Of a stretch of 64,000 bases of DNA, positions 1,494 through 63,608 are shown piece after piece. The notes below the pieces were generated by a model. It worked only from the letters and a program-made list of their open reading frames with translations. It did no database searches and was not told the origin of the DNA. This DNA comes from Naegleria gruberi (lineage: Eukaryota). A program made the translations under genes and the position numbers. The first letter of the stretch is position 1. Every line of letters begins with the position of its first letter. The stretch lies in assembly GCA_000004985.1 (NCBI GenBank), contig GG738854.1; one strand, 5' to 3'.

Positions 1494-4107
1494 TTACATG
1501 ACAAGACAATTTCTATCTGATGAATTATTCATCTTTTTACCTAAACTCTTGTTTCCAGAAGATGAAGGTTTCTGGTGATGTCTATTGACATTGGCATGTA
1601 CAGGTGCATTTGGATTGTGTGATCCGCCAAGAATGGATTTTATCACTTGTACATCATCCTCATCATACTCATCAACCAAATGTTGTCTTTCACCATCTTC
1701 CAGTAAGCTATCATAAGCATCCTTTTGTTCTTTCATGTATTGGAATACTTTCTGTTCATTGTCTTGTTGTTTGGATCTGGCAAGAGTGAATTCTTCATGG
1801 ACTATGGTGATGGTTTCGATCAAGTTTTGATCTAATTCAGCTTCCAATTGCTCTTGTGTGTAATTTGTAAAGTTTCTGGCAATGAGATGGATACAACATT
1901 TTTTGACAATTTCAGCTTGACACATTTCAGCAACTTGACACATTTGTAAAACGTTGGAAGGTTGAAGATAGAGGACAATCTTTCTCTCTGCTGCAAGTTT
2001 GAGTGTATCAATGTTAAATCTGGTAGCCAGTTCAAGGAGAGGTACACTTTGCTCAGCAGTCAACTCATTATCATTGATATTTCCACCTGTGTAAATGTGT
2101 TTCAATAGAATTTCGAATGAATCTCTGGTGGTGCTGTCGAGGTGAATAACCTTTTGGAAACTTTCACTGAATTGACCAATGGAGAACATGGCTCTGAAAT
2201 ATTCCAATCTGGCACATAAAATACAACGATGTGATCTGATAAATGTTCCATCATCCAATGAAAAACTCACGTCTGAGAGGAAGGAGAAGATGGTATCAGC
2301 TGCTGGGTCATTAAGTCCTGAACTTTCTCTCATTGCCAATTTGTACAAATTTTCAAAATCTCTGGTATAATCACTCAGCTCTCCAAGAAGACTGCTTGAT
2401 CCCTTGACTTTTTCATGGATCATTTCTTTGGAAACCACCTCAATCATTGTAGCTAGATCCTTCTTATTCTCATCAGATATATCCTCTTTTTTTAACAATT
2501 CTGTCAAAATTTTGGTAGCTGCTTGTGTATTGTTAATATGTTCATTAATGATGAGAAGCATTCGTTCATTCTTTGCTGAACGACCAGTTGCATTGGTATA
2601 AATGAAATTCAATAGTTCATCCAATTCTTCTTGACTTTCAACAAAATCCAGGGTAATTACTCTTTCAATGTGTGATGTATCTGTGACCTTGAATTTTGAT
2701 GATTGATTATTATTCGATTCCAAATATTCCTTAATCAATAAACTTGTAAATAAAGGACTACGGGCACTAAGAATGGCAGCATGGCAAACAGCTTCATGTC
2801 CATTCTTTGATTTGAGAATACAATCAGCATAGTATTGAGTTTCTTTCAAAAGTTTGGTATAACTTGCTGTGAAACTCATACCAGTCACTAAAAACATATT
2901 GTAACCACCAACAAAAACATCACCAATATAAGTTTCAGCAATGGAACCGACTGGAGTTGGATCATTAACATATTTACCGTGACCATGCCCCAAATTAAAG
3001 TGCAAATTGTGTCCCCAAGAGTAGACATTTCCATCATTGGTCAAGACAATAAATGAACTGTATGATGAGGCAATCTTTTTGATATTTCCTTTTGAAATTG
3101 GAATGCTCACCATTGTGGGGTTCATAATTTCACTGTTTGCATCACTGAGATGATCATTCTTTTCAGTTTTTGCTGTTTTAATTCTTCCCCAAACATAAAT
3201 ATTACCCAAATTATCCAAAGCCATTGTATGTCTCATTCCACAACTCACTTGAACCCAACGAGAACCACTCTCAGCATATGGATGTTTCACTTCAACAATT
3301 TTTTCCTCACTAATATGAGCACTACCGTCCTTAGTCACTTGGCCATCACTATTTTTACCATAGCCAAACAATTTTCCACTCTCAGTCAATACAAATCCAT
3401 GGTGAGTTCCACAATTCACACTGGCACAAACCTCTGAATCAATCAATGAATTTCTCACCATGACAGGTTTATGTCTATTCTCCAAACCCCAAGTGAATAA
3501 TCTTCCATCCTCACTCACAGCAGCCGAATGTCCTTCACCAGCTGCACAATCAACAATTCTATGCGAAAACAAGTATTGAATTGGTTCTGGTATTCCACAC
3601 AATGAAGACATTCCGTGCCCACATCCCATTCCAAAGCCGAAACTAAATAAAGTTCCATCACAAGTCAAAACGAGTGAATGTGTCTTTCCAGCACTTGCTT
3701 TCAATACACGATGATGTGCACTTGTACTGAATGGTTCTTTAACTTCGATCGGAAGTGTATAATTTAAAATATCAAGAGATTCAGGTTCACCTAAACCAAG
3801 AGCACCATATCTATTTCTTCCAACTATTCCATTTAGTTTAGAATAGTTTTTTATATGATTAATTATAAAAAGATCAAATGATCATTACACTACCTCCATA
3901 AAGATGTCCACTTGTAGTAACAATCAGAGAATGCCACAAACCCACCGAAATAGACTGAATATCGAGAGACGAAAGTTGTGGAGATTCCACCAATGTCGTC
4001 TGAGTTTTATAAGTATCAAGTGCTAAACCACCAAATCCTCCGAAACCAACTTGCTACTGTTGGAAATGTATTTCTATTAGAAACTTACCAGCAAGAGTTG
4101 CAGACAT
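1494..4107 (-). CDS. RCC1-repeat plus BTB/POZ domain protein (RCBTB-like), 3 exons
   Basis: Exons on the minus strand are 4107..4089 (MSATLA), 4049..3894 and 3823..1494. Introns are 4088..4050 (39 nt, GTAAGT..AAG, phase 1) and 3893..3824 (70 nt, GTAGTG..ATAG, phase 1). Splicing removes in-frame stops and yields consecutive RCC1 blades (GFGGFGG.., GHLYGVGRNRYGALGLGEPE.., GHSAAVSEDGRLFTWG..). A central BTB-like region and a C-terminal tail follow. About 834 aa in total. Confidence 0.7.
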
Positions 4108-4366: not shown

Positions 4367-5205
4367 ATGTCGTTATCTGATGATTCTTTCACAAAGACAA
4401 AGAGAAAATACTCCGATTATGAAAAAGATTATAAAGAAGAAGATGATGCTGATGATGAATTAATTTATGATCGTTTTGATAAGAAACGTAAAGGTGAAGA
4501 AGAATTAATTGTCGGAATGAAAACAATGTTAAATGTTCAACCTGATGAGGTGATTTTCTTACTCCGAAGGCAACAATTGGTATTTCGAGTGTTTCTCATC
4601 AATTTAGAAGAGTTTGGAAAGAAACTCCGAATGGAATTGTTTACAATATGATTATTCAATTGAACTATTCCTTTAAGAAACGTTCCTGTTCCTTGGATGA
4701 TAGAATTCAAGTGGCCAATTTTTCCAAATCGGCAATAATAGGAGCTTTCATTCAGGGAGAATCATCAGAAAAGATTCTTTCAAAGACAGAACGTTTTGTT
4801 GATGAATTAAGCAAAATTAAGGATAAATCTGAAAATTTCACAAATGCCATTTCAAGAATTGACAGATTTGATTATGGACAAGATGACAAAATGTATTATG
4901 GAGCTTCCCTTCGTAGAGCTGCTGGTTTTGAAATATCCTTTGGTAAACTTGGAGTATTGAGATATTGGCAATGGAAAGAAAGAGATGAGGAATTTGGAGA
5001 TTCCACAGTATTTGCTAAATTATCCAAAAAATTGGAAACTTTGAATTTGACAGAGGAAGAATGGGATGTTATCATTGAAAATTCGATTGGATATTTGGAG
5101 GAAGAACAAGTGGAAATTTGTTTTTATGAATTTCAGTATGAAGAGGAGATGGGAGATTCAATTTTTATGGATAATGAATTGGTACCATCACTGCCTTGTG
5201 ATTAA
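4367..5205 (+). pseudogene. F-box-like family member, copy 1 of 3 tandem paralogues; apparent frameshift in the F-box region
   Basis: Frame A (4367..4651) encodes an acidic/basic N-terminus that reaches ..QPDEVIF. The conserved continuation (ATIGISSVSHQFRRVWKETPNGIVYNMIIQLNYSF.. and the C-terminal domain, 4549..5205) lies in a different frame. Nucleotide comparison with copy 2 shows a roughly 13-nt, non-multiple-of-3 loss near 4555..4566. No GT..AG intron can repair the frame. Confidence 0.5.
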
Positions 5206-5248
5206 ATTCTATGATTGGCTGTCAGCTTTCAATTTTACAATAAAAAAA

Positions 5249-6091
5249 ATGTCAGCACAAGAAAGTGAAGAAACATCAAACTCATGCTACTCTTCAGATG
5301 ATGAAGAACAGAGTCAGGGAACAAAGAGAAAGCTTGATGATGATGATTTTATTTCCAAAAACAAGAAACAAAAACAAACAATTATTGGAGTGCAAACTCT
5401 CGGACAAATGCCAGACGAAATTATTGAACAAATATTCGATTTTATTCCGAACAGATATTCGGCAATTCGTGTTTCTGGTGTTTCTCAACAATTTAGAAGA
5501 GTTTGGAAGAAGACTACTTTTGGAATCGTTTACAATATGATTATTGAACTAAACTATTCTTTTGTGAAACATTCGTATTCTTTGGATAAACAAATTGGAA
5601 TTGGCCGAATTGTTAAAGAAGAGATCAATCAACTGTTTGCTGAAAAAGAAGATGAAAAGCAAGATTTATTTTATGAACAACAGGCTGATCTTTTAATTGA
5701 AGAATTGAGGAAAAAAGAAAACATGTCAGAAAACTTTACAAAAGCACTTTCAGAGATTACAAGATTTGATTATGGAGAAGAGAGGGATGTGCCTAATGGA
5801 GTATGTATGGGAGTGAGTAAGGGAATGGAGATTGAATTTGGAGATCTAGGGATGATTAGATTTTGGAAATGGGATCAAATCTATGTTAAACATGGAGACT
5901 CTATAGAATCTGGCATAATGTCGGAAAGTTTACTTGATTTGAATTTGACAGAGGAGGAATGGAATATCATTATTGAAACTGCAGGTAGTAAAGCAGATCT
6001 GTGGCTTAGATATAAAAACTTTGAGCACCACAATGAAGTGGGCTCAATATTTGAGGATCATTTGTTAGAAATTTCAAGTGAGCTTTGGTGA
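5249..6091 (+). CDS. F-box-like protein with a conserved C-terminal domain of unknown function (copy 2)
   Basis: aaaaaaaATG start; intact 280-aa ORF. Motifs MPDEIIEQIFDFIP (F-box-like), QQFRRVWKK, IVYNMIIELNYSF, ENFTKALSEITRFDYGE, EFGDLGMIRFWKW and LNLTEEEWN are shared with the copies at 4367 and 6258. Confidence 0.6.
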   Translation: MSAQESEETSNSCYSSDDEEQSQGTKRKLDDDDFISKNKKQKQTIIGVQTLGQMPDEIIEQIFDFIPNRYSAIRVSGVSQQFRRVWKKTTFGIVYNMIIELNYSFVKHSYSLDKQIGIGRIVKEEINQLFAEKEDEKQDLFYEQQADLLIEELRKKENMSENFTKALSEITRFDYGEERDVPNGVCMGVSKGMEIEFGDLGMIRFWKWDQIYVKHGDSIESGIMSESLLDLNLTEEEWNIIIETAGSKADLWLRYKNFEHHNEVGSIFEDHLLEISSELW

Positions 6092-6257
6092 TGATGGAAC
6101 ATAAATTGAGTTTAGAATATTCAAATATTGCTAGAAATAATTATTTTCTGTTCAATAAACCCAGTATCAGTTATACTAAAGTACTTCATATCATGCCGCG
6201 GTATTATCTTTCGAATAATTTCACAGTTTACAAAATATTATTTTTTTTTTTAAAAAA

Positions 6258-7046
6258 ATGTCATCACAACAATCTAATATTATTGATGATAATCAATCCA
6301 CAATGAAAAAACATGACAAAAATAGCCAAATTTCTCACCACCACAAGAAAAATCTGGCAAGTCAACCTGAGGAAATTATTGAGCAAATATTCGAATTTAT
6401 ACCTAGAGATGAAATTATTCGTGTATCGGGAACTTGCCAGCAATTCAGGAGATTGTGGAAAGAAAGTCCTCATGGAATAGTTTTTAACATGATTATTCAA
6501 CTAAACTATTCCTTTCAGAAATATTCCTATTCTTTGAATGATGAAATTGAATTGGGAATATATACAAAGGAAACAATTAGTAGAATGATTTGTAAGAAGG
6601 AAAAGGAAAGGCAACAGTTATTTAATCTTGAAAAGAAAGATCGATTGTTAACTAAATTAAGTGGAAAGGAAAATATTTCTGAAAATTTCAACAAGGCAAT
6701 TAAATTGATTACAAGATTTGATTATGAAGAAATAGAAAGAGAACACAATAATTCACCGTGTTATGCACGTGGATTTGAAATTGAATTTGGTCAACTTGGA
6801 ATGATGCAACTTTGGAAATGGAATTATTTAAGAGAAGACCACAGCGAATTATCAGCCAAAATGTCAGAAAAATTGAAATCATTGAATTTAACAGAAGATG
6901 AATGGGATTTCATTATCAAAATGGCATGTAACTATATTAATTTATCGAGGGTTGATTTGGATGATTTTTACTATCAAGAAATTCGCGAATCAATATTTAA
7001 GGACCATTATATTATGACCAAACCTATAATTTCTTTCAGGTTTTAA
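6258..7046 (+). CDS. F-box-like protein (copy 3)
   Basis: aaaaaaATG start; 262 aa. Motifs QPEEIIEQIFEFIP, QQFRRLWKE, IVFNMIIQLNYSF, ENFNKAIKLITRFDYEE, EFGQLGMMQLWKW and LNLTEDEWD place it in the same family as copies 1 and 2. Confidence 0.6.
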   Translation: MSSQQSNIIDDNQSTMKKHDKNSQISHHHKKNLASQPEEIIEQIFEFIPRDEIIRVSGTCQQFRRLWKESPHGIVFNMIIQLNYSFQKYSYSLNDEIELGIYTKETISRMICKKEKERQQLFNLEKKDRLLTKLSGKENISENFNKAIKLITRFDYEEIEREHNNSPCYARGFEIEFGQLGMMQLWKWNYLREDHSELSAKMSEKLKSLNLTEDEWDFIIKMACNYINLSRVDLDDFYYQEIRESIFKDHYIMTKPIISFRF

Positions 7047-8723: not shown

Positions 8724-10460
8724 ATGATTCAACTCCTTGACTTGGATTCTCTTGCTTCCATCTTCTCATTTCTTCCTGACAATCACCGAGGAAAATCTGC
8801 TCAAATATTGAAATGTGTTTCCAAGTACTTTTCCCACTTGTTTTCAGTAAATTATAATCATCAATATACTGATTACTTTCGGGAAGTGTTCGGATCAATG
8901 TTTGTGCCAAAGATGTATATTCAACTATGTAGGCTTTCTACTCAGTCCTCCGATCGTGATGAATTTGGAGATCAATTTAGCAATTGTTTAAAAAGATTAT
9001 TCGGAAGAAGATTTGAAGCAATTTCCAAGACTGAATTTGAATTGGAGTTTGATTTTCCAACTACTACTGAAGAGAAGAATACTGAACATATTTTGAATTT
9101 TCTTCCACACATTGTGGAGCAGAATTCAGACGAAAGGCAATACTTGTTGGATGATGAAAAACATTCTGCCAATCATGATTTGATAAAGCAACTGCTACAT
9201 TGGAAGTTTAATTCTAAAGATTCACTGACATTGAATAATTATCGGAACTTTGATAAAAGGAAGAAAATCAATGCATTTCGTTTCTTCAAAAAATTCAAAT
9301 TTCATTTTCAATTAGTCACTAACTCCACATTGGGAGAAACAGAAATTTACACTTGTAAATACTTTAATCTATTCGAAGTATGGGATAATGTCATAGTTCC
9401 CAAACTAGATTCAACTTCTGTTAGATGTGAAATAGAGAAGAGTTCAGAATCTCAAGCTTATGGAATTATTCGTTCTTCTTTTCTGAACTTCATCAAGTAT
9501 GCAGAAAAATATGGAGACTTTGAATTGCAACAAATATATAATGGGAAAGAGTTGGATGAATTACAAAAAATCTCACAAGAAGGTTCTATTACTGACTTGA
9601 TTGACTATTTGACCATTTCAAGAAATATAATAATGCATTTCACAACGAGTATACTCTCCAACAATACCAACCTGATTCGATATTCTTCCATAGAGAGGCC
9701 ATACTTTCACCCTAAAATACGCACTGCTTTGGGAATTACTGAGAACCTATCACTCATACCATGGAATGTATTTACCAACAATATTAGACTCGAGTTCTCT
9801 TCAATCATTCTCTATCACTTGTTGGAGGATGCGTTGAATATTTCAGAGGAATATCTCACCAAGTACAGAAACATACACAACCTACCAATATATCACCAGA
9901 AAGAGCAGAGGATTACTTTTGTATCGAATAGGAACAATTTTGTTCTCAAATTTCAAACCCTTGAATTCTACAGAACTGTTGCCATAATTAGAAATAACAT
10001 TGTGACAATACCCTTCTACCCAAGTGCATCCCTTGAGGGTTTCTCTCATCATGTTCCTCGCGACCAAGTATCAACCTTCCCTACCACCTTAGATTCAGTC
10101 AATCTGTGTTGCATGAAGTACTGCACCTTCAATACTATCACTGCTCCATTATGGTGTGTTCCTTGCTGTTGCTGGTGGGGTGCCATGACTTGTTGTTGTC
10201 TCTATCCTCTATGTTATCAAGCAGAGAAATTGCTCTCTGGAGATGGTATGTGTGATGCACTGGTGGACAGCAAACATAGATGCATGTCGTGTTTTGATTG
10301 TGATGTATGTTTATTCGTTTCTGCCAACTCCTTGTGTTATCCTTGCTTTTTATTAAAGGCCAGGGTAACCGATGGACCTTTTCTACCAGAGGCCAGAAGT
10401 TGGACCATTGCTGACGACAAGATATTTGGAAATAATAATAACTATTGCAATATTCTGTAG
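8724..10460 (+). CDS. F-box-like N-terminus with an unusual Cys/Trp-rich C-terminal region (578 aa)
   Basis: aaaaaaaATG start; N-terminal LLDLDSLASIFSFLPDN is F-box-like. The last roughly 100 aa are CCMKYCTFNTITAPLWCVPCCCWWGAMTCCCLYPLCYQ...CMSCFDCDVCLFVSANSLCYPCF. Confidence 0.5.
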   Translation: MIQLLDLDSLASIFSFLPDNHRGKSAQILKCVSKYFSHLFSVNYNHQYTDYFREVFGSMFVPKMYIQLCRLSTQSSDRDEFGDQFSNCLKRLFGRRFEAISKTEFELEFDFPTTTEEKNTEHILNFLPHIVEQNSDERQYLLDDEKHSANHDLIKQLLHWKFNSKDSLTLNNYRNFDKRKKINAFRFFKKFKFHFQLVTNSTLGETEIYTCKYFNLFEVWDNVIVPKLDSTSVRCEIEKSSESQAYGIIRSSFLNFIKYAEKYGDFELQQIYNGKELDELQKISQEGSITDLIDYLTISRNIIMHFTTSILSNNTNLIRYSSIERPYFHPKIRTALGITENLSLIPWNVFTNNIRLEFSSIILYHLLEDALNISEEYLTKYRNIHNLPIYHQKEQRITFVSNRNNFVLKFQTLEFYRTVAIIRNNIVTIPFYPSASLEGFSHHVPRDQVSTFPTTLDSVNLCCMKYCTFNTITAPLWCVPCCCWWGAMTCCCLYPLCYQAEKLLSGDGMCDALVDSKHRCMSCFDCDVCLFVSANSLCYPCFLLKARVTDGPFLPEARSWTIADDKIFGNNNNYCNIL

Positions 10461-17961: not shown

Positions 17962-20900
17962 ATGCAAAACAATGTAGAGGAAACAAAATTTAATAACAAT
18001 AATAGTAGTACTAATAACATGGTCAACAACAATACAAGTATTGGAAAGGAGAATGGTGGAGAGAATGCCTATATTGATGATTCGTTGGAAACTTTACCAA
18101 TGCGATCTGCTAGAAGAATCATTCAATTCATTGGTGAGAAATTATCAAATGATTCGGAAATTACTCCATCCAAAAGGAAAGCCATCGAATCCATCATTAC
18201 AGAGGATAGAATAATGAAGGAAATTGAACAATTGGTAGGGAAGGATTACTTTAATTTGAGTGAGGAAGTAACAAGCCTTGGAAGGAAAATTAATATGAAT
18301 CAAAAGATGGATGTTGAGTATTCTGATAGACCAGAGCCTATTGTTCTTACCAATCGAGTAAAGATGCTCTATGGAGGAGAGAATGATAAATCAAAGGTAG
18401 TTTCCTCAACATTGAGAAGATTTGATAAATCCAAATATTCTCATGCATCAAAATTGAAACAACAACAAGAATTGAATAGGAAATTAATTAATAATTCGAA
18501 AAACTTGAAGGTAGATCCGAGAGATATCGAGGAAAATCAACCAGTTCGATTAGTTTACGATGAGGAAAAGCCAACCCAGAAAGATATTGAAATTTATAGA
18601 GGTGATAAGAATGAAGAATTGACTGATGAGGAACGTGCACTACAACAAGCAGTGAGCTACATGCAAAAGTACAAGGAATACTTTAAATATATACAGGATA
18701 TTAAGGTTAGTAGAGTTTGATATTTTAATTAGAAATGTAAAGTATTTGAGACATATTCCAAGTAAATCAGCTCGTAGTATGATTATTGAGAATTTTGAGA
18801 AATATTTGGTAGGTTTTTGGATAATTTCACTTTTGTTTCATACTGTTGACTAGATGGATGCCAAGTACTATTTACACTTTTATCATAAATATTCGTATTT
18901 TTGGGCTCCAGAGTCAACTAGATCTGTAGAATCCTACAAAGGGCTATTCGTTCCAATTGACAAGAGAAAAGAAGAGGAAACTTTTGATTTTAAATCACTT
19001 GATACTTACGAACCACTGAGGACAATGATTTATCAAGATTTTCATGACAGAGTAAGGAATGGATTACCACCTTCTTTGGATTTGGATGGAAAACTTCCTC
19101 TTCTTGCAATGCACTATGCAAGAACTACCTTTGTACCACCAATGACAAGAGAGGAAATGAACAGGCTTTTCTATCCAATAACAGAGGATGTTAAATATCA
19201 AATTCCAGAATATAAGGGCACCAAAGTAGATAAGGTACAGAATTCTACCATGCTAAATAGATTCCAAAAGTATTACTTTACCAGAAGGCATTTGGCTGGT
19301 TTAAAAACTTTATTTTGGTATTATGACTCGTATACTGAATGCGTAAAACCTGTTGCGGTCGAAGAATTTCTGGATCATTTATCTCGTCTAGTTTACCTTT
19401 TTGAGAATGATTTAGTGAAGGTCAAACATGAAGATCAATGTCTTGGATTATTTCATTCCTTCACACAACATTCTGCCATATCCAAAGAGCTAATAATGAT
19501 TATTTCTTCTTGTTTCTTCATGGGACTACCATTCGTGACATCCTTTGAGAAAATAGATAATATTCAGGATTTGATTTCCAATATTTCTCAATACTGTTCC
19601 CTTCCTGTTATTGCCTCAGCAGATCACAGGATTGTTTCCAAAATACTTGGTAGCAACCAATCGAATATTAGTAAGCTATTGTACTATGGAAATAACGAGT
19701 CATCTTTTCAAAGCGAAAAAGGAACTACTTCTTTTAAGAAGGATCCAATTTCTAATATTCTCAAACCTATCAAAGTAAGTTGAAAAGTTAGAATGAATTA
19801 ATTTATAATCTCTTTTAGCAAATTAGTGTAAATAACAAGCCATCCCATGTCACCTCGTGGGATTACATTCCATCTAATATAGATACCAATATGCATGTGG
19901 TTAATTACAAGGAATCTATTAAAAGTAGGACGAGCGAGTTGGATTCTGCAGATATAGAGAATGTTAGACAATCTACAATATCTAAATATTCAAGCAGAGA
20001 CAAAAGAAATGACCTTCTCTACATGACTTACCATGGAACTCAAGTTGGATGCATAACAGGCTCAACTTTTGAGAGAGTGATTGATTCATTGAATGAACAA
20101 TTTAAAGATTTACTCAATCATATCAAGCAAACAAAATCAAGTGATACTACACCCAAGAAAGTTAATGTTATGATAATGTCCAATGGTTTCAGTATGCTAA
20201 CAATGTATTTGCTTGCATTTTGTTTTGAAAATGCCCTCTCCTTTTCTTTTATTCCTATAACTGAAAAGGAAACAATGCTAAAAAATTTAGGAGAGTTGCA
20301 ACCAGATATTATCATTAGTGATACACATACCATAAATTGGATATCAGAAATTCTTGACTCGGTAACTTTTAACTATAAGTATCCAAACCATAACACTGTT
20401 ATTGACAGTGAACATTTGAACAATATTAACATTGAATATGAAGGGCTAATAACAGACTGGACCATGTCAAATACACTAAAGAACCTGAAAAATACATTCT
20501 CCCAGATTGGAAAGCAAAACCACAATAACCATTGGAATTTACACGGAATAATAACTATTGGAACAGGTTTACCTATTGAGACCATCCATACTCTATCAAA
20601 GAAAGTCAAATTTATATACCAGTTGATACAAGAGGATCATGTTCAATCTCCTCTTTTGGTAAGAAATTTCTCAAACTCTGGACATTATTCACTTGAACGT
20701 GAGATTATGAAACCATGGACCTTTTCGACAATCAATGAAAAAAATCAAATTGTGATAGAGGGAGTTTCTGCAATTGTTAGAAAGAGACCTTTGTTTGAAT
20801 CCCGTAAGGAAGAGGTTATACTCACAGGTATGGAAAATTCAGTATTCGACACGAACGAAAGGTCTAACACCTTGGAACAATCAAATCAATTAAGAAATAA

Positions 20901-21797
20901 TCTTATAGAACAATACAGACAAGTGGAAATGCCAAAAGATGTTCGAGAATCACTCACCAAATGTCTAAGGTTGAAAGAGGAGTTTGATTTTTATGTTCAA
21001 GTACACAAGATGGTACAAAAACGTGAGAGTAGCACCAAGAAACCAACTTCTTTGGCCCTGTTCGATAACATTTTATATTCAGTCTTATTGGATGAGCTGG
21101 AGAGTATTACATCGATTGGTAAAATTGAAGACCTTACTGAAGTTCTCAAGTATTTGGAACTAAGAATAGACTTGACTGCTCAATGTGTACAATTGCAATT
21201 AATTGATTTTAGATTTAGATTTTCATCATCCCTCAGGGAGAAGAAGGTCAAGTTCCATTTCAAACATGATTCTCTTGGAATATTAATTGATAACGTACAA
21301 ACCACTATCAAGACCAATATTTTCTACATTCAAAATAACTTTTGTTTTAGACCATTCATTTCAGATAATGTTTACTATAGTAAGTTTTATTTGTTTCACA
21401 ATATTAAATTGTTCTAGATTTGGATATGATTGAGGGAATATTCCAACACAAGCTTAAAGAACGAGCTATTATTCAAAAGTATAACAACCAATTATATTTA
21501 ATTCTATTCACAAAAAGACCAGATTACAACCTTAGGCCTATCATATTTTCAATGGTGGAGGAGAGTTTGAGAATGAATGGATTTTCATTTAAGGAGAATA
21601 ACAGATGGCCCCTATCAATGTTCGGAACGAGGGGTGGCTCTAGCAAGCTTATTGATGGGCTGAAAAATAGCAAAATTCTATTCTGTTATGGTTTGGACTG
21701 CTTTGATGGCGATAATAGATTGTGTGAGAGGAATAATCAATTAATAATTCAATTTATAGAGCAATATTTTCGTAGAGAAAAATATTCCAAGATGTAA
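17962..21797 (+). CDS. Large hypothetical protein (about 1200 aa), 4 exons, no recognised domain
   Basis: Exons are 17962..18705, 18854..19774, 19819..21379 and 21418..21797. Introns are 18706..18853 (148 nt, GTTAGT..CTAG; supported only by frame continuity and the lack of an A-rich start context at 18854), 19775..19818 (44 nt, GTAAGT..TTTTAG) and 21380..21417 (38 nt, GTAAGT..TTCTAG, phase 1). N-terminus is N-rich (NNNNSSTNNMVNNNTS). Confidence 0.5.
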
Positions 21798-23491: not shown

Positions 23492-25165
23492 TTATTGTTT
23501 GTTTTCTAATTTTGAAACTCTATCAAGAAGCATTTCTAATTGAGATTTGAGGAATAAATTCTCCTGTTCAACTCTCCTCACATGCTTGAAAACAAAATTC
23601 AATTGTCTGGCAGAGAGATAATGAATGAGATTCCTTGTAGTTTCGTAAGATGCAACACTGTAAGGTGTTTGACCTCTCTTGTTTCTAAAATTGACATCTG
23701 CACCATTGGAAATCAGTAACTCAATGATTGGGCACCAATTTCTCTCAGCTGCATAATGTAAGCCAGTTTCTAATTCATCATCACATAAATCTATTTGAGC
23801 TCCATAGCTGTAGAGAAGTTTAGTCACAGAGAATAACCCCAATTTACAAGCCAACATGAATGGCGAACGGTTATTCTTGTCCAAAGTGTCCACGCCCACA
23901 TTAGGTTGACTAAGAAGGAATGAAAGCAACTCTTCATTGTTATTTCTTACTGCAGCATGAAGAGGGGACTCAAAACAGGCTCCATGTTGAATGGCAAAGT
24001 CAAAATCGTTAGGATAGTTAGTCATTATATATTTTACAATGTTGGATCTGTTAAATTTAGTGGCAGAGTAGAGGAAGTATTCGTTAGGGTTTGATTTTTC
24101 TCGAATCAAGTATTGCTTGTAATTATTTTCAAAGAGAACTTTGAATGCCTCAACATTGTCTTGACACGATAAAAGAACATAGATTGCATTTCTCCCATTA
24201 ATATCGTACTTGTGAGGTTGGGCTCCAAATTCAATCAGTCTTCTCAACTTTTCCAAATCAATAGTCTCTCTTCTGATTTCTTCAGTGAGTGCCTTGTTGA
24301 GAACAATTCTGTTAATGTTTTGGTTTGGTGTCAGGTCATTCAAAAGTGGTGGAATGTTTCTCTGCAGTCTGGACTCCAATAGGAACATGTACATTTCCTC
24401 TACCATCTCTGTGGTACCTAGCTTACATGCCAATTCATAGCCATTCAGAGTATAGTCAATCAGAGTCTTCTTACAAAGCTTATTTGGCTTGGTCAATTGG
24501 CTTATATTGTAATTTACCAATTCGCTTAACATTTCAGGTGAATAGAGCAACAATCTCACATCATTCTGATAAATTTCTCTTGCCAAATTTCTATCCTTAT
24601 TAACAACAGCCCATTGAAACTCAACCACAGAATTACAAGGAAGAAACACATCATTGGACAAGTGATATTGGAAAGGACAAACTTTGGAATGTTTCAAATT
24701 CTCAAAAAATCGTTGAATTTCATTCTTAATATGAACATTCTCAATAGTTTGAGTTCCAATATTCTCTCTAGTGAATGGAGACTCTGAATTGTGATTTATC
24801 AACCATTGACTAATCAGTTCCTTCTCATATGTTCTTCCATCTCCAGCCAAATAGGGCTCTACCATTATTATATCACTTATTGGACAAAACAAATCATCGG
24901 AAGGTTGCAAAGACTCAAAGTCTACTTCTTCATCTTGTTGACTATTGTTGGCTGGTTGTATGGTTGCAGTTGAAATATTATCAATAACCAAATTTTCAAG
25001 CCTTTGATTTTCTACCAGTAAATTCTCTTCTTCATAATCAACAAGACATGGTTCTTGCTTGTTAGTGGAAGGATTCATATTCAGTAAGACAATTGGTTCT
25101 TCTCCCATTTTCTTTTCATATTGTTCTTCCATCAGATTACAATTAATTTGAGTTGATAAGGTCAT
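23492..25165 (-). CDS. U-box E3 ligase-like protein with C-terminal ankyrin repeats (557 aa)
   Basis: True ATG at 25165. U-box motif LFCPISDIIMVEPYLAGDGRTYEKELISQWLINHNSESPFTRE. C-terminal ankyrin repeats (TPLHAAVRNNNEELLSFLL.., TGLHYAAERNWCPIIELLISNGADVNFRNKRGQTPY). Confidence 0.65.
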   Translation of the reverse strand: MTLSTQINCNLMEEQYEKKMGEEPIVLLNMNPSTNKQEPCLVDYEEENLLVENQRLENLVIDNISTATIQPANNSQQDEEVDFESLQPSDDLFCPISDIIMVEPYLAGDGRTYEKELISQWLINHNSESPFTRENIGTQTIENVHIKNEIQRFFENLKHSKVCPFQYHLSNDVFLPCNSVVEFQWAVVNKDRNLAREIYQNDVRLLLYSPEMLSELVNYNISQLTKPNKLCKKTLIDYTLNGYELACKLGTTEMVEEMYMFLLESRLQRNIPPLLNDLTPNQNINRIVLNKALTEEIRRETIDLEKLRRLIEFGAQPHKYDINGRNAIYVLLSCQDNVEAFKVLFENNYKQYLIREKSNPNEYFLYSATKFNRSNIVKYIMTNYPNDFDFAIQHGACFESPLHAAVRNNNEELLSFLLSQPNVGVDTLDKNNRSPFMLACKLGLFSVTKLLYSYGAQIDLCDDELETGLHYAAERNWCPIIELLISNGADVNFRNKRGQTPYSVASYETTRNLIHYLSARQLNFVFKHVRRVEQENLFLKSQLEMLLDRVSKLENKQ

Positions 25166-25925
25166 GGTCAATTATATTCAATTTACAATTTCAGACTTTG
25201 GGTAATTTTACAATTTGTATATATTTACAAGGGCATATATTTACAGTGTTTTACAAATATTAATATTGGATTGTAGTGAGGTGGTTATACACTTTCCGAT
25301 ATTGAAAATTAAATTGATGAGGAGAATACCAAATTCAAAGATAACTGATTCAGTGCCAAATGATGATTTGAATAAAGCTTGCACTATTTTTAATGTTGGT
25401 GCTTTTTGTTTTGTGGTTTGCGATTCTCTGTTTTGGATAGACAAGATTTTCAAACGTCTTGCCTCAATCGTTCTCGGCGAGTGTTGTATTTTGTTGTTAC
25501 TTGTTGTTGCTTGTAATATTAGTATTAATAATAGACACTAGGGTTTACAATTTTGCCAAGGCAGATTACAAATTGATGATTTTGGGAGAGAAATATGATG
25601 AGTGGCTCTTGATTGAGTGTAAATATGACTTTTAGAGAAGGACATTCTCTTTCAGTTAATTTCATTATTGAATCCAAGTAGTAATATTATTAGATTTTGA
25701 TTGTATTTAAAATAATATATGAGTTTTTTAATAATAATATTCAATCATGATGGAAACTTTATTAGGAACCAATCATTTCATTGTATACAACGTTTCACAA
25801 AATTTAAAGGAAATAGAGGAACAAAATATTCCTAATAGAGTTTTAAAACAATAAGGCAATCATCCTGCTAAACACAATGCAAACTTGATTTCTTTGCCAC
25901 GAATCAAAATTTATTCAAGATAACT

Positions 25926-29183: not shown

Positions 29184-30141
29184 TTACATGAATTTTCCAT
29201 CATGATAATCTTCAAAAGCTTGTTCAATTTCCTCTCTAGTATTCATAACAAAAGGTCCATATCGTGACATTGGTTCATGCATTGGTTCACCTGCAATGAT
29301 TACCATTTGTACAAAATCAGAAGTTGATTTGAATTCAAAAAGTTGATCTTCTGTAGTTTCAGAAAAGAGAAGAGCTGCCTTTTCCTTAGCATTTTCAAAC
29401 TTGTTTCCATCTTGAGTCAAGACTCCACTTCCCTTAATGACATATACGAAACCTTGATAACCCTTTGGAATGAGTTCCTTAAATGTATGACCTGATTTTG
29501 TAATCTTGACATCAAAATACAAGACCTTAGTTCTCAATTCGAGAGGACTTTCAATATCTGCATATTGACTCTTTCCACCAATTACTGCAATTGATGTGTG
29601 TTCATCAATTTGCTTTTTTGGAATGTTTTCTGCTTTCAAATCTTGATATTTTGGAGGAACCATCTTATCCTTTGCTTTAAGATTAACCCACAATTGCATT
29701 CCTGTATTGACATTCAATCCAACAGGTGTTTCAGAGTGAATAAGTCCACTGCCAGCTGTCATCCATTGAATATCACCAGCATGAATAACACCACCACCTC
29801 CTCTATTATCCTTGTGTTCAAAAGCTCCATCCATCATGTATGTCACAGTTTCAAATCCTTTTATTTCCATTAAATAATTATAAATATCATGATAATTAAA
29901 TAATTAAATAGAATAGGAAAGGATGTAAATTGAAAATGCACAAATTAAACTTACCTCTATGAGGATGATTTGGAAAACCTGCAGGTTTAGCAACCTTAAA
30001 TTCGTCCAACAAGAGGAATGGATCATGATACGACACAGAACCTCCAATGGTTCTAATAACTCTGGCACCTACGCCTTCACTTTGTTCCTTTCCCAAAATT
30101 GTCTTGATAACTTTTACAAATGATGCTGATGAGGAGGACAT
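29184..30141 (-). CDS. Pirin (cupin superfamily), 2 exons
   Basis: Exon 1 is 30141..29955 (MSSSSASFVKVIK...FPNHPHRG). The intron is 29954..29858 (97 nt, GTAAGT..AAAAG, phase 1). Exon 2 is 29857..29184 (FETVTYMMDGAFEHKDNRGGGGVIHAGDIQWMTAGSGLIHSE...). Splicing recreates the canonical pirin motif HPHRGFETVTY. About 286 aa. Confidence 0.85.
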
Positions 30142-46930: not shown

Positions 46931-48042
46931 TTATTGCTCAGCAGATTCATCTTCCACTTGCTCACCTTGATTCTCTTGATGTTTCCTCTTTCGTTTTGGA
47001 ATGATTTTTTCAAGAGCTTGACCCCAAATTTCAAAATTAGTGAGCTCTGGTTTGGTTTGTTTCAATTCGATACAATCAGCAATGATTTCTACACATTGGT
47101 TGGTGGTCAGAACACTACATGCCTTCATGTCAATGTGCTTATCGAGTGGGAATTTAGCTGTTGGAATGTTATATTCTTTGGTGGCAATTTCATTACACAG
47201 ATTCTTGTGTCTGTTTCTATCAATAATACCTCCACTATTATTTTGTAATGAATATTTAAATTGTAAAATTTGAAAACTTACATTACATAGACATGTCCTT
47301 TTTCAAATTCTGTAATTTCATTCTCAGCATCAGCAGAAAGATAAATCACCTTATTTTCCTTCAATTTGTCCTCAAATTCCTTTGTAAAATGTTGATCTGT
47401 TAATTTCATCATCCACTTTTCAGGAAATCCTTCAAATTTCTTTAAACTATTGTATAATTCACCTTGTAAGGATGTAAATGTCATATAGAAAGGATTCTCC
47501 ATTCTCTTATAGGCAGCATAGCATTTTCCAAGTTGTTGAGCCAATGAAATAACTTCATTATTTGTCATCTTATCATTAAAGGAACAATCCACATTTATGC
47601 AAACATTGCAATCATTGGTTATTCCATTTTCTGTGGCTTGTTTCAACTTGTTGATGAGGTTCTCCTTTTTCATTCTTTGTGAACGAATTCTTTCTTCCTT
47701 CTTCTTTTTATTTTCTTCCACCAATTTTTCAAATTCCTCTGGAGCCAATTCGTCTCTCATCTTGGTGAAAAAATCATCACTATTCTTTTTCTTTTGTTCT
47801 TGTTTAACTTCCTTTTTTTGCTTTTTATGTTTCTTGAAATTATTCTTCCTGGTTTCCCATCTTTCCTTTCTCTTTTGCAATTTTTCATCCTTTGATGGTT
47901 TGTTTTCCGAATTTTCAGAAGTGTCATTACTGGCTTCCGATGGTGGTAATGTTATATTATTTTCTGCCATTGTTGATTGTTCCGATTTTTGTTCTTGCTC
48001 GACAAAATTTGATGAATTTCCTTCTGTTTGATGTTCAGTCAT
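46931..48042 (-). CDS. TRM10: tRNA (guanine9-N1)-methyltransferase TRM10 homologue (SPOUT class), 2 exons
   Basis: Exon 1 is 48042..47282 (tcaaaaaaATG), the intron is 47281..47235 (47 nt, GTAAGT..AATAG, phase 2) and exon 2 is 47234..46931. K/E-rich N-terminal region, then ..ITNDCNVCINVDCSFNDKMTNNEVISLAQQLGKCYA.. and ..GHVYVIGGIIDRNRHKNLCNE..FPLDKHIDM..VLTTNQCVEIIA.., the TRM10 SPOUT signatures. Confidence 0.7.
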
Positions 48043-48140: not shown

Positions 48141-51100
48141 TTAAATGACAAATTCATTTTCAACCTTTTCATTGATAGTAATGAAAGGAATTTGTGTTTC
48201 CTTAACAATGGAGGGACCATCAACTGGACACGATTTACCAATCATTTCATCGAGACGTTTACTGGCATTCTTGAATTCTAATTGCCAGTAGAGTTGAGTC
48301 TTTTCACTTCCATCATTCATTGCTTCGGCCAATTCTAAACGAGCCTTGTGCCAATTTTCATAGGTCTCTTCAAGGAGATTGAGCCTTTTGTAGAGGGCAT
48401 TTCTTTGGTCTGCTTCTTCTTGGGTAAAGATTGGATTGATTTCTGACAATTTGAATCTTCCTTGTTTGATATCTTGGATGTTAAATTCAATTTGCCTAAC
48501 CTTCATTTGAAGTGTTGCAATTTCACTTTCCTTTTCTGCCTTATCTACTGATCGTTTGAGTCTTTCTAACTTTCTTTGTTTCTTGAGTTTCTTTTCTTCG
48601 AGGTGTGTCAAGTTTTCATTCACTGCCTCTTCGATAGCAGTTTGTTGAGCCTTATCTTCAATGGCAATCAATTGATTCTTGAGTTGGTGCTTGTTGATTC
48701 TATAGAGACAGTTCAAGTGGAATTTTTGACCTGATGGGAATACATAGAAGAAGTAATTCTTTCTCTCGTTTGGATCTTGAAGGTTAGGAAGGAGGACTCT
48801 TGATTTACACCTTTCACAAGTGTCATCATAGTCAATATCATAGTAAATATTCATAGATGATAAATCATTTCTGATCAATTCAGCATCATTGGTGGCATCT
48901 CTCATTTGGACTTCAACTCTGTTATTTTGGAATGAATAGGTATCCAAAATCGATTCAACATCTTTCAAGAGTTCATCGAGTTGAATCTTGGATGGGAAAT
49001 ATTTGATAACATCATCCAACAATAAGACATCACCAAAGTCTGTAATGAGATCGAGTGCTTTCTTGTAATTTTCTTCCTTGACATAGTATTTTACAATCTT
49101 GATAGCAAGTTTACGTTTGAGTTCTGGGTCTTCAACAAATTGAAGAACTGTTTCTTCTGCAAGCTTGACATTGTTAACTTTAGAGTCAAGAGCCAAGTCA
49201 ACTGCTTCCTCATAGAGTTCCAAAAGTCTGTATAACAATACACATGCTTTCCATTTTCTTCCTTCAATAGCCAATCTGAGTGCATATTCTTTAGTAAAGT
49301 AGATATTTTCGGATTCTTTAGTTTCCTTTAGGTAAGTTTCTAACAAGTCAGTATTTCTTTGATTGACCAGCAAGTAGACAAAGAGATCGTGAACAGTTCT
49401 ATTTTCATTCTTTTGATCCTCAATACACCATTTCAAATATTCTAATACTTGAGATTCCTCTTGTCTAACAGATCTTCTTCTTGTTTGACCAGCTTGAGAT
49501 CTGGTAATGTAGTCATATTTCAATATGGCTGGGACCAAATCTCTTGGGTTAAGGAATTGCAAACGTTTGAATGATTTAACAATTTCATCTCTCTTCTCAT
49601 AATTCATCAAAAGTGGAGTGTATCTGTACCAAATCAAGTTTTGAGGAGAAATACCTTCAGACTTTTCAGAGAAGGCATTTGGCTCAGTACAAAAGCTATT
49701 CAGGATAGTGTAGGCATTCTCGTAGTATCCAAGTTCCTTAGAGTGATTGGATTCGTATTCAGAGCTCTTAGCCATAGTAACACAATATTGAATAATTGTC
49801 AAATAATCACCAATAGCACTTGCAAAGAAGAGGAATTCTCTGACAAAGTTATTACTCAAAAAGATGTCATAAACAACGTCCTTGGCTTTTGCTAACAATT
49901 CCTTCTTATTGTAGGTAAACTTTCTCATAACAGCCTTAATTTTGTGAAGTTGTTGTTCTGCCTTGGTTTTTTCTTCCAATTGTTCTCTGTATTGATCTTC
50001 AGAGCATGCAACAGTAATAAATTTACCCATGATATGTCTCTGTTGATTCATCTTGAAGCACAATAATTCAACAATCCAAACAGCAAGAATGACACTCTCA
50101 GGACATTCTTCAATTTTCTTATCATTCTTCTAATTTCAAAGTTAGAAAATTCATAAAATTATTGCAAACTTACAAATCTGTGAAGCATATAGTACAAGTA
50201 GTTGTAGAGACCATTCTTCTTATCTTCTGGATCAACTTCCATGAATTTCATGGCAATTTCTTCAAAGTTTCTGTTTGTTCTGGCATAATCAAGAGCAGCA
50301 GTGTTGAAATCTCCCTTCTTAAAATGGTGATCAGCTTTAGCAGAGTAGATAGCCATTCTATTTTCCTCTGAGTTCATATCAAAAAGAGCTGACAAGTGAA
50401 GGGCCATCTTGAAGTATTCAGACTTGATCGATTCCATATCCTTGTCTTCAATTTCCAAAGCAGCATCAAGGAAAATTCTCCAAAATCCTTTAGCTTGATC
50501 ATCAATTGAAACTCTGTATAATTTCGAAGAGTTGAAAACAAAAACTGATTGATTACTCTCTTCTTTGGATTTGTCAATAAAGGATCTGTCAATCTTTACA
50601 CCGAGTGTATTAATCATTCTAACACCAAGAACGTGCTTACTCAACAATGAATACCTTGAATTACTTGGTGGAAGGAATGCAGGTTGCATAATAACATAAA
50701 ATTCGTCCTTGTAGCACACAAACAAATGGAAGCTGTTGAGTTCAATATCAACTGGTACATCATTTGGATTCTTGTGAGGTAATTTACCGGCCTTGTCGAG
50801 AGTCTTTTGAGAATCAGCGTAAATTCTACCAAAGACAACTTGTTTGGCTGTAATACAGGCAAAACAGAGTGAGTCATAGATTTTAAGAACACTCTTGTGC
50901 ATAATCTTTGGCTTCTCCAAATCGAGATGATCATCCTCATCGTAATTCTTGAAAGATGGAATGGCTGATTGCTCTGGGCCATACCTATCGAAAATATCAG
51001 TAATTTCACCACTTCCAGTAAATACTGCAACACCAGCAACACTTGAAACAAAAGCCATAAATTCGTTTCTTTCCTTAATTTCTGCAAATTCAATACTATC

Positions 51101-58800: not shown

Positions 58801-59565
58801 TTAGAAACTTTTCAATCTTTCATTTACTTGTTCTAAATTGAATTCACCTTCAACCTTCATATTCGTTTCATCAATTTCTCCTCCCTGTCCATCAATGCAA
58901 TAAACCAACCTATTCTCACCCAATGAATTATTCCTTTCTTCCACTAACTTTTCCTGTTTATCACTTTGCAATTCAATATTCACTTTCCACTCCTTTCCAT
59001 AAGTATAGAATAATTGCATTTCTCTATTCTTATCCTCTGCAAATACATCCTGCAATAGGAAGTCATGTTCTTCCTGAATGTGTGGAAAGTGTCGATGCGT
59101 GGCATTCTCACTACTCTCATACGACGGCATTTGGAGAATACTTTTAGTATTTCCATAGAATTTTCCAGAAGAATCAATATAGTAATGAGGATGAATTCGA
59201 TGAGTTTCATTATTCCAATCCAAAGCATCCATTACAATATTGAAAAAATAATGCAAATTGATGGTGGAAGGAACGTGAATCGTTCTGAAAAAGTGTGATA
59301 GATGGGAAACTGAAATTTTGAAAATCAAATAAGGGGATTCAGAGTGATCGATTTTGGAAACCTTGTTGGATGGTTGAGTATGTTCATTGAGTGATTCATC
59401 TTCGATGAATGAGTCTTTTTTGGTGTTGGGACTTGTGTTTTCAATGTTTGCACGCTTTTTATCGATATGATGGGATTCTTGTTCTTGCAGATGTTGTTGG
59501 TGAAGTTCAATTTTGTGAGGCAAGTGGTGATAAACCGAATCCTTTCGAATATTAGAAGTAGACAT
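58801..59565 (-). CDS. Protein with a pRiA4b ORF-3-like domain (PF07929-like) (254 aa)
   Basis: aaaaaaaaATG start. Core SPYLIFKISVSHLSHFFRTIHVPSTINLHYFFNIVMDALDWNNETHRIHPHYYIDSSGKFYG matches the hallmark pattern of that family (L.V.L.g..P.iWRRi.VP...TL.dLH.viQ.a.gW.d.HLh.F...g..yG). Confidence 0.5.
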   Translation of the reverse strand: MSTSNIRKDSVYHHLPHKIELHQQHLQEQESHHIDKKRANIENTSPNTKKDSFIEDESLNEHTQPSNKVSKIDHSESPYLIFKISVSHLSHFFRTIHVPSTINLHYFFNIVMDALDWNNETHRIHPHYYIDSSGKFYGNTKSILQMPSYESSENATHRHFPHIQEEHDFLLQDVFAEDKNREMQLFYTYGKEWKVNIELQSDKQEKLVEERNNSLGENRLVYCIDGQGGEIDETNMKVEGEFNLEQVNERLKSF

Positions 59566-63021: not shown

Positions 63022-63608
63022 ATTAAAAATTAATGTAATATTATAATACAACGCAATCAGATGATTAAATATTTTACAACAACAAGACGTGAGGGAGAGA
63101 AGGTCCTAGGTAGACGTCGTCTTGTGTAGGCAATTTTTTTAGGCTTTGATTTATTAATAATTCGGAGGAGAGAAGCTTATTAGAGAGGAAGTACCTTTGT
63201 ACAGTTTTTCTCCACAACAAGAATAAGATTGAGGGTTTTAGCAATTAATCGATGAAGTAGTACTGGATGAGGTGTATTGATTTTTTCAGTACTTGGATTG
63301 GACAAGTTCATTTCAAAGATTGGTCCATTCGAGATGAAGCATCAATAATATCTATCTGTTGTATTGGTGTTGCCTTAAGGGGCAGGTATGATCGAATATA
63401 TTTTTGCATTACTAATAGCAAAGAGAGTTGAGTGTTCTTGTTGATAGAAGTAAAGCTGTTTACTTTTTTCGCTTTTAATTGTTGTTTTCCAAATATTTTC
63501 AAAATAAATTAATTAATTGTATGATGATGATTGTAATCCTAAATAATTTTCTATTCCTTTCATCAATATTAATTCCAATTTAATTTTCTCATCTAAGTGA
63601 TAATAAAT

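What the first reader, a model, noticed from the sequence alone, without database searches (positions are those of the whole stretch)
4367..7046. Tandem triplication of an F-box-like gene family; the first copy carries a frameshift in the F-box
Three head-to-tail paralogues (4367, 5249, 6258) share an F-box-like motif (PDEIIEQIFDFIP) and a roughly 170-aa conserved C-terminal domain (NYSF, ENFT/NxA..RFDYGE, EFGxLGMxxxWKW, LNLTE(E/D)EWD). I do not recognise this C-terminal domain. In copy 1, the N-terminus (frame A) and the F-box plus C-terminal domain (frame B) are in different frames. Alignment to copy 2 shows a 9-nt plus 4-nt loss around 4555..4566. This looks like a recent duplication array with one decaying copy, or a sequencing error.
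Basis: seen in the sequence. Interest (0 to 1): 0.5.

Follow-up and report, generated by a model that had tools for sequence, protein, structure and literature searches.

The report
Naegleria F-box trio, one broken
Three neighbouring genes of the amoeba Naegleria gruberi encode related F-box (ubiquitin-ligase adaptor) proteins with an uncharacterised C-terminal domain found only in this species; the first copy has lost 16 bases that remove the core of its F-box and shift the reading frame, and the public annotation hides this by fusing it to the second copy, so this is ordinary gene-family turnover.

Summary
The window is Naegleria gruberi nuclear DNA. It carries three head-to-tail paralogues (4367-5205, 5249-6091, 6258-7046). 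Each has a disordered basic/acidic N-terminus, an F-box and a conserved C-terminal domain of about 190 aa. Copies 2 and 3 pass Pfam's F-box threshold. Copy 1 lacks exactly the six residues of F-box helix 1 (IIEQIF). The simplest cause is one 16-nt deletion at 4550-4555, which also shifts the frame. No GT..AG excision restores the F-box.

The duplication is old, not recent: amino-acid identity is 40-48% and dS is at or above 1. The lesion in copy 1 is young. The 217 codons after it have no further defect and keep 40 of 41 family-invariant residues.

The family has six members, all in N. gruberi, and none in N. fowleri or N. lovaniensis. The C-terminal domain has no Pfam match. It folds confidently (pLDDT 88.5) into a long helix plus a four-stranded sheet, with no convincing PDB match.

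The public gene model NAEGRDRAFT_47059 fuses copies 1 and 2 through two implausible introns.

Verdict: a lineage-specific family of SCF substrate receptors with one freshly disabled copy. Interest is low.

The parts
4367..4549 (+). Copy 1, N-terminal part in the original frame (61 codons). It holds basic clusters KRK...KKRK and ends in QPDE, the first residues of the F-box.
   Evidence: The stretch KKRKGEEELIVGMKTMLNVQPDE aligns to P0005 (E = 0.005). It has the same A-rich context before the ATG as copies 2 and 3.
4550..4555 (+). Deletion junction (GTGATT). A net 16 nt is missing relative to the family, which removes F-box helix 1 (IIEQIF) and shifts the frame. The ATG 4367 frame then runs out of frame to the TGA at 4649-4651.
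   Evidence: all paralogues align from nt 4552. The repeated ATT/GATT flanking a 16-nt interval in copy 2 suggests slippage; that is inference.
4552..5205 (+). Copy 1, remainder in the shifted frame (217 codons plus stop): the second half of the F-box (DFLTPKATIGISSVSHQFRRVW) and the complete C-terminal domain (4636-5202).
   Evidence: It keeps 40 of the 41 residues that are invariant in the other five members and has no further stop or frameshift.
5206..5248 (+). A spacer of only 43 nt between the copy 1 stop and the copy 2 ATG.
   Evidence: GC 0.26.
5249..6091 (+). Copy 2, intact, 280 aa. The F-box lies at about 5405-5518 and the C-terminal domain at 5519-6088.
   Evidence: PF00646 22.7 bits, cut-off 20.5, residues 53-90. 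It is 100% identical to the C-terminal 280 aa of P0001.
6258..7046 (+). Copy 3, intact, 262 aa (= NAEGRDRAFT_64435). The F-box lies at about 6366-6467 and the C-terminal domain at 6477-7043.
   Evidence: PF00646 26.8 bits, residues 37-70. The sequence is identical to P0002.
4511..4569 (+). The 59-nt 'intron 1' of the public fused gene model NAEGRDRAFT_47059 (GTCGGA...GAAG, GC 0.37). It is probably not a real intron.
   Evidence: exon map. It covers sequence homologous to coding sequence of the paralogues. Credible introns in this window are GTAAGTTT...TAG with GC 0.15-0.21.
4943..5225 (+). The 283-nt 'intron 2' of the same public model (GTAAAC...GTCAG). It removes the conserved second half of copy 1's C-terminal domain and then reads through copy 2's 5' leader.
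   Evidence: The removed stretch encodes GKLGVLRYWQW...LNLTEEEWD, which is conserved in all members.

Best explanation
The array encodes three members of a six-member F-box family confined to Naegleria gruberi. Each protein has the layout of an SCF (Skp1-Cul1-F-box) substrate receptor:
- a disordered N-terminus with two basic clusters (KRK ... KKxK), read here as a possible bipartite nuclear-localisation signal (inference);
- a roughly 40-aa F-box that would dock on Skp1 (inferred from the family);
- a roughly 190-aa C-terminal domain that would hold the substrate (inferred from its position).

The C-terminal domain is predicted as a 43-residue helix, a short helix, a four-stranded antiparallel sheet with long strands, and two helices.

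Copies 2 and 3 are intact. Copy 1 suffered one microdeletion of 16 nt at 4550-4555. This removed helix 1 of the F-box and shifted the frame. Translation from its ATG now ends after 33 out-of-frame codons, and no Skp1-binding protein can be made. It is therefore a young pseudogene, or a null allele of the sequenced strain.

The array itself is old. The public 460-aa model that joins copy 1 to copy 2 is a gene-caller artefact that bridges the frameshift.
For: Shown:
- Organism and identity of the genes.
- The F-box scores above Pfam's cut-off in five of six members (22.7-38.6 bits). It is undetectable in copy 1 even at E <= 10, whether the frame is repaired or the public splicing is used.
- The gap is exactly IIEQIF, and every paralogue's alignment to copy 1 starts at nt 4552.
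- None of 19 frame-restoring GT..AG excisions restores helix 1.
- The copies are old: 40-48% amino-acid identity, dS 1.0-1.2, pairwise dN/dS 0.38-0.50.
- Copy 1 has a typical branch length and keeps 40 of 41 invariant residues, so the lesion is young.
- A profile HMM search of 1.84 billion representative proteins and a word-indexed search of 5.8 billion clusters find only the six N. gruberi proteins plus one fragment from an ENA metagenome.
- The flanking RCC1-BTB gene does have N. fowleri and N. lovaniensis orthologues in the same collection, which serves as a positive control.
- The domain model is confident (pLDDT 88.5, pTM 0.79).
- The public model's introns are GTCGGA (GC 0.37) and a 283-nt stretch of conserved coding sequence. 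Six credible local introns are GTAAGTTT...TAG, 38-97 nt, GC 0.15-0.21.

From established knowledge: F-box families evolve by lineage-specific birth and death and carry many pseudogenes (PMC3030570, PMC3984280).
Against: - No transcript or read data could be consulted, so neither splicing nor an intact second allele is excluded.
- The 217 downstream codons are flawless and conserved. This equally fits continued selection on a product without an F-box.
- dN/dS for pairs that include copy 1 (0.44, 0.50) is only slightly above that for copy 2 against copy 3 (0.38).
- Skp1 binding, substrate binding and nuclear localisation are all inferred, not tested.
- The AF2 confidence of the F-box helices themselves is low (pLDDT about 50-57).
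- The single 16-nt event is the most parsimonious reading, not a demonstrated one.
Confidence: 0.6

Rival explanations
1. Copy 1 is still a working gene that makes a protein without an F-box. This could happen by excision of a short GT..AG segment (for example the annotated 4511-4569, or 4488-4549 with its GTAAAG donor), or by use of the internal ATG at 4648. Such a product could bind the family's substrate without recruiting Skp1, acting as a decoy or a protective paralogue.
For: The downstream frame is open for 217 codons and keeps 40 of 41 invariant residues, with a typical branch length. dN/dS is below 1. Nineteen GT..AG pairs restore a continuous ORF. The N-terminal ORF, including its basic clusters, is also intact.
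Against: All candidate 'introns' lie in sequence homologous to coding sequence of the paralogues. They have GC 0.31-0.43 and none has the GTAAGTTT donor seen in the credible introns of this window. The ATG at 4648 lies behind several upstream ATGs, including the ancestral start. An intact sequence is also what a very recent lesion would leave. There is no expression evidence either way.
Confidence: 0.17
2. Copy 1 is intact in the organism. On this reading the 16-nt gap is an assembly or cloning artefact.
For: There is only one lesion in an otherwise perfectly conserved gene. The sequence around the junction has short direct repeats (ATT/GATT) that could also promote deletion during cloning or replication (inference). 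A sister locus differs by frame between strain NEG-M (P0003) and a nearly identical metagenome contig, so single-read-level discrepancies do exist in this family's data.
Against: A 16-nt loss is not a typical base-calling error. Nothing else in the window looks like low-quality sequence. The public gene model was built on the same gap. No data available here bear on it directly.
Confidence: 0.15
3. The public model is right: copy 1 and copy 2 are one three-exon gene that encodes a 460-aa protein (NAEGRDRAFT_47059).
For: Both proposed introns have GT..AG ends. Only 43 nt separate the copy 1 stop from the copy 2 ATG, which is little room for a terminator and a promoter.
Against: Intron 2 would discard the most conserved part of copy 1's C-terminal domain (FGxLG..W.W, LNLTEEEWD). 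It would also translate copy 2's A-rich leader (AFNFTIKK) in front of a methionine that aligns with the start codons of all other members. Intron 1 has a non-consensus donor and coding-like composition. All five other members are 197-286 aa single-unit proteins.
Confidence: 0.05

Closest known systems
F-box proteins (Pfam PF00646), the substrate receptors of SCF (Skp1-Cul1-F-box) ubiquitin ligases
   Same: An N-terminal F-box of about 40 aa with the canonical pattern (P-x-E-I-I-x-x-I-F-x-F-I-P ... V-S-x-x-F-R-R-x-W), followed by a separate C-terminal domain in the position where other F-box proteins carry their substrate-binding module. Five of the six members pass Pfam's cut-off.
   Different: The C-terminal domain matches none of the Pfam domain families, including those that accompany F-boxes elsewhere (LRR, WD40, Kelch, FBA and others), and no solved structure. 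Copy 1 no longer has a recognisable F-box.
Lineage-specific, tandemly arrayed F-box gene families of plants and animals that evolve by birth and death ('genomic drift'; PMC3030570, PMC3984280)
   Same: Tandem arrays (a trio here and a pair, EFC39625/EFC39626, on another scaffold). Restriction to one lineage. Presence of disabled copies beside intact ones.
   Different: The family is tiny (six members) and old within the species (dS saturated). It is not a large, recently expanding family. Positive selection was not tested.
NAP/SET histone-chaperone fold (long dimerisation helix plus an alpha/beta 'earmuff' with a four-stranded antiparallel sheet)

Membership tests
F-box protein (PF00646) | Sequence match to the F-box profile above the curated cut-off (20.5 bits) | tested here: met
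   Copy 2 scores 22.7, copy 3 26.8, P0003 38.6, P0004 28.9 and P0005 29.1 bits.
F-box protein (PF00646), copy 1 only | Sequence match to the F-box profile | tested here: not met
   No F-box hit even at E <= 10, either for the frame-repaired copy 1 or for the publicly spliced version. Helix 1 (IIEQIF) is missing.
F-box protein / SCF substrate receptor | Binding of the F-box to Skp1 and assembly with Cul1 | not testable with these tools
   This needs an interaction assay or a complex prediction with N. gruberi Skp1.
F-box protein / SCF substrate receptor | A C-terminal domain that recruits a substrate | tested here: inconclusive
   A conserved, confidently folded domain is present (pLDDT 88.5). 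It has no known relatives, so its binding role is inferred from its position only.
NAP/SET histone chaperones (PF00956) | Sequence or profile similarity to the NAP domain | tested here: not met
   No Pfam NAP hit at E <= 1 or E <= 10. hhalign probability 0.14%. No PDB sequence hit.
NAP/SET histone chaperones (PF00956) | Significant structural superposition | tested here: not met
Spliceosomal intron of N. gruberi (for 4511-4569) | GT..AG ends and a length that restores the frame | tested here: met
   59 nt, GT..AG, restores an ORF. So do 18 other GT..AG pairs, so this has little weight.
Spliceosomal intron of N. gruberi (for 4511-4569) | Donor and composition like the credible introns of the same window (GTAAGTTT, GC 0.15-0.21), and no homology to coding sequence | tested here: not met
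   The donor is GTCGGAAT and GC is 0.37. The segment encodes the region homologous to VGMKTMLNVQPDE..DFLTPK of the paralogues. The local intron set is small (six) and was picked by a heuristic.

The most novel reading that the evidence does not exclude
The C-terminal domain is a new fold that arose in the N. gruberi lineage as a private substrate-recognition module. Copy 1 is not dead: it is expressed as an F-box-less protein that competes with its intact neighbours for the same substrate, acting as a natural dominant-negative regulator of an SCF ligase.
Probability: 0.08. Interest if true: 0.45.

Novelty: new member of a known kind. Interest (0 to 1): 0.2.

Why it matters
It matters mainly for annotation.
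- A public protein (XP_002680188 / D2V6G9, 460 aa) is very probably a chimera of a broken gene and its intact neighbour. It should be split into a pseudogene and a 280-aa F-box protein.
- The six proteins define a small, undescribed domain family that could be added to the domain databases.

Biologically it is one more example of lineage-specific turnover of ubiquitin-ligase adaptors, here in a heterolobosean amoeba. The substrate is unknown, and nothing here opens a long-standing question.

Tried and rejected
- **Giant-virus or phage origin.** This was my first impression from the dense ORFs and 33% GC. There was no blastn match in the phage collection, the genes are identical to N. gruberi nuclear genes, and the IMG/VR scan was negative.
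- **Relatives in metagenomes.** Two scans of the JGI metagenome contigs, one with a peptide pattern and one with a degenerate GIVYNMIIxLNYSF DNA pattern, found nothing.
- **P0006 and P0007** (E = 1.9e-9 and 1.5e-6). Both are long repeat proteins that match a 30-50 residue stretch many times. I judged them repeat-driven and spurious.
- **NAP/SET relationship.** Rejected, see the membership tests.
- **PDB sequence search.** The best hit was PrsA at E = 0.018, which is not meaningful.
- **Programmed -1 frameshift.** There is no slippery heptamer at CCTGATGAGGTGATT (read from the sequence).
- **ATGA stop/start overlap at 4648-4651.** The same nucleotides (AAT ATG ATT) are conserved coding sequence in all copies, so this is coincidence.
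- **Synteny with N. fowleri.** The orthologue of the flanking RCC1-BTB gene sits next to TRAPPC10 and Ku genes, with no F-box gene nearby.
- **DNA of the other N. gruberi paralogues.** It could not be fetched, so dN/dS was limited to the three window copies.
- **The afdb50 fold library** was not available.
Full report
**What the window is.** The ORF of copy 2 is 100% identical to the C-terminal 280 residues of 'predicted protein [Naegleria gruberi]' (P0001, EFC47444 / XP_002680188, NAEGRDRAFT_47059). The ORF of copy 3 is identical to NAEGRDRAFT_64435 (P0002). The GC content is 31-37% throughout, which fits the published 33% for N. gruberi NEG-M; the same source gives 1.7 exons per gene (PMC8296547). 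The rest of the window holds ordinary eukaryotic genes: RCC1-BTB, HIRA, RRS1, pirin, peptidase M49, ribosomal protein L2/L8, PI3-kinase and PIP5K. The sequence is therefore nuclear DNA of a eukaryote that has spliceosomal introns, and this matters for judging the 'frameshift'.

**Check of the observation.** Three same-strand units start at 4367, 5249 and 6258.
- Copy 2 (280 aa) and copy 3 (262 aa) are uninterrupted.
- In copy 1 the frame of ATG 4367 is open for 94 codons, to the TGA at 4649-4651. The rest of the homology lies in another frame, which is open from just after TGA TGA (4546-4551) to the TAA at 5203-5205.
- The similarity is far beyond chance. Copy 1 (4552-5202) against copy 2 gives E = 2e-49 at 42% identity. 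Copy 3 against copy 2 gives E = 3e-54.
- tblastn with five family members finds only these three places in the 64 kb.

**The lesion.** In the protein alignment of all members, copy 1 reads QPDE------DFLTPK-ATIGISSVSHQFRRVW where the others read QPDEIIEQIFDFIP....
- In the loop that follows, copy 1 has the same length as copy 3, P0003, P0004 and P0005. Only copy 2 carries an extra codon there.
- At the DNA level, copy 1 has CCT GAT GAG GT GAT TTT where copy 2 has CCA GAC GAA ATT ATT GAA CAA ATA TTC GAT TTT. Eighteen bases are replaced by two, a net loss of 16 nt.
- All five paralogues begin their tblastn alignment to copy 1 at exactly nt 4552.
- One deletion therefore explains both the missing helix and the frameshift. 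P0005 has PDEVV at this point, so the remaining GT can be read as the remnant of a valine codon. ATT/GATT repeats 16 nt apart in copy 2 suggest slippage. Both of these last points are inference.

**Is it an F-box family?** Pfam PF00646 scores above its 20.5-bit cut-off in copy 2 (22.7), copy 3 (26.8), P0003 (38.6), P0004 (28.9) and P0005 (29.1). For copy 1 there is no F-box hit even at E <= 10, whether the frame is repaired conceptually or the public splicing is applied. The first helix of an F-box carries the core hydrophobic contacts with Skp1 (established knowledge of the family). Copy 1 therefore cannot be expected to bind Skp1 under any reading.

**Could an intron rescue copy 1?** I listed every GT..AG pair that gives a continuous ORF from ATG 4367 to the stop at 5205. 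There are 19, and none restores helix 1.
- The public model uses 4511-4569 (59 nt, GTCGGAAT...CCGAAG, GC 0.37).
- It then uses a second 'intron' at 4943-5225 (283 nt, GTAAAC...GTCAG). This removes the conserved FGxLG..W.W and LNLTEEEWD part of copy 1. It also reads through copy 2's A-rich leader into the methionine that aligns with the start of every other member.
- For comparison, I found introns in this window that are supported by domain continuity: pirin (HPHRG|FETVTY) and PI3-kinase (PIK accessory domain to kinase domain). A heuristic scan gives six introns of one clear type: GTAAGTTT...TAG, 38-97 nt, GC 0.15-0.21.
- The two public 'introns' do not look like these, and both lie in sequence homologous to coding sequence. 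I conclude that the 460-aa protein is a chimera created by a gene caller that bridged the frameshift.
- One caveat: the local intron sample is small and no transcript data were available.

**Age of the array and of the lesion.** Pairwise values for the three copies are as follows.

| Measure | Value |
|---|---|
| Amino-acid identity | 40-48% |
| Nucleotide identity | about 60% |
| pS | 0.56-0.59 |
| dS | 1.0-1.2 (saturated) |
| dN/dS, copy 2 vs copy 3 | 0.38 |
| dN/dS, copy 1 vs copy 2 | 0.44 |
| dN/dS, copy 1 vs copy 3 | 0.50 |

- In a neighbour-joining tree on 179 ungapped columns, copies 2 and 3 pair with each other. Copy 1 joins the P0004/P0005 pair from another scaffold, on long branches throughout. 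The triplication is therefore old.
- The lesion is young or harmless. Copy 1's terminal branch (0.39) is typical of the family (0.35-0.59).
- Of the 41 positions invariant in the other five members, copy 1 keeps 40. The other members kept 40 of 43-50 in the same test, so copy 1 has the best ratio.
- There is no second stop or frameshift in the 61 + 217 codons.

**Distribution.** A profile HMM of the C-terminal domain was run against 1.84 billion representative proteins. It found five proteins at E <= 1e-30, all from N. gruberi NEG-M:
- the fused P0001;
- P0002;
- P0003 (EFC47012);
- the adjacent pair P0005/P0004 (EFC39625/EFC39626).

It also found a 61-aa fragment from an ENA metagenome contig and two repeat proteins that I regard as spurious. 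The word-indexed search of 5.8 billion clusters gave the same set. JGI metagenome and IMG/VR scans were negative. As a positive control, the flanking RCC1-BTB protein has full-length orthologues at 51% identity in N. fowleri and a partial one in N. lovaniensis in the same collection. Those proteomes were therefore searched, and they lack the family. In N. fowleri, the neighbours of that orthologue are TRAPPC10 and Ku, not F-box genes.

**The C-terminal domain.**
- It has no Pfam hit and no PDB sequence hit.
- The AlphaFold2 model of full-length copy 2 shows a disordered N-terminus (residues 1-53, pLDDT below 50), low-confidence F-box helices (about 50-57) and a confident C-terminal part.
- The domain alone gives pLDDT 88.5 and pTM 0.79 from only seven sequences. 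It consists of a 43-residue helix, a short helix, four long antiparallel strands, two helices and a short strand.
- Foldseek finds nothing (best E = 0.55).
- I therefore treat the domain as unclassified. The AlphaFold-database library was unavailable, so 'new fold' is not established.

**Mechanism (best reading).**
- Copies 2 and 3 are SCF substrate receptors. The F-box binds Skp1 and the C-terminal domain binds an unknown substrate. The N-terminal KRK...KKxK clusters, present in most members, may direct the protein to the nucleus. All three steps are inferred.
- Copy 1 is a recently disabled member. From its ATG it would give a 94-aa product with 33 out-of-frame residues.
- The rivals are an F-box-less functional product, an assembly artefact, and the public fused gene. 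They are weighed in the report sections.
- F-box families are known to evolve by lineage-specific birth and death with many pseudogenes (PMC3030570, PMC3984280), so this picture is ordinary.

**Verdict.** The useful outcomes are a correction to a public gene model and the definition of a small species-restricted domain family. Interest is low.

Noticed in passing
window 4367-6091: The public N. gruberi gene model NAEGRDRAFT_47059 (XP_002680188, 460 aa) maps to exons 4367-4510, 4570-4942 and 5226-6091. It fuses the broken copy 1 with the intact copy 2 through two implausible introns.
   Followed up: yes
window 5206-5248: Only 43 nt separate the stop codon of copy 1 from the start codon of copy 2. 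This leaves almost no room for a 3' end and a promoter. Copy 2's promoter may lie inside copy 1.
   Followed up: no
L001 1-372 (ENA ERZ929261 metagenome contig) compared with P0003: The singleton family member P0003 (EFC47012, 197 aa) ends in a shifted frame after LNLTND. A metagenome contig that is 100% identical over residues 110-156 continues in frame into the conserved family tail. That contig has its own frame change at W156/E157. A second family member may therefore be damaged, or mis-sequenced in one of the two sources.
   Followed up: partly
window 19775-19818(+), 21380-21417(+), 29858-29954(-), 47235-47281(-), 50130-50173(-), 53610-53656(-): Six short introns of one uniform type: donor GTAAGTTT, acceptor TAG (AAG in pirin), 38-97 nt, GC 0.15-0.21. 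The pirin and PI3-kinase introns are supported by Pfam domain continuity across the junction.
   Followed up: partly
window 58801-59565 (-): An ORF of 254 aa matches Pfam PF07929 (plasmid pRiA4b ORF-3-like protein, E = 1.9e-10). This family is named after a bacterial plasmid protein, and here it sits in an amoeba's nuclear genome.
   Followed up: no
window 8724-10460 (+): A 578-aa ORF whose N-terminus (LDLDSLASIFSFLPDN...) looks like an F-box but gets no Pfam F-box hit. Its C-terminus is very cysteine-rich (CCMKYC...CVPCCCWWGAMTCCCLYPLC).
   Followed up: no
window 1494-3704 (-), 23492-25171 (-), 62122-63051 (-): Several other ubiquitin-ligase adaptor-type genes lie in the same 64 kb: RCC1 repeats with two BTB domains, U-box plus ankyrin repeats, and a BTB_2 (T1-type) protein. 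The RCC1-BTB gene has N. fowleri and N. lovaniensis orthologues, but its neighbourhood is not conserved there (L002).
   Followed up: partly
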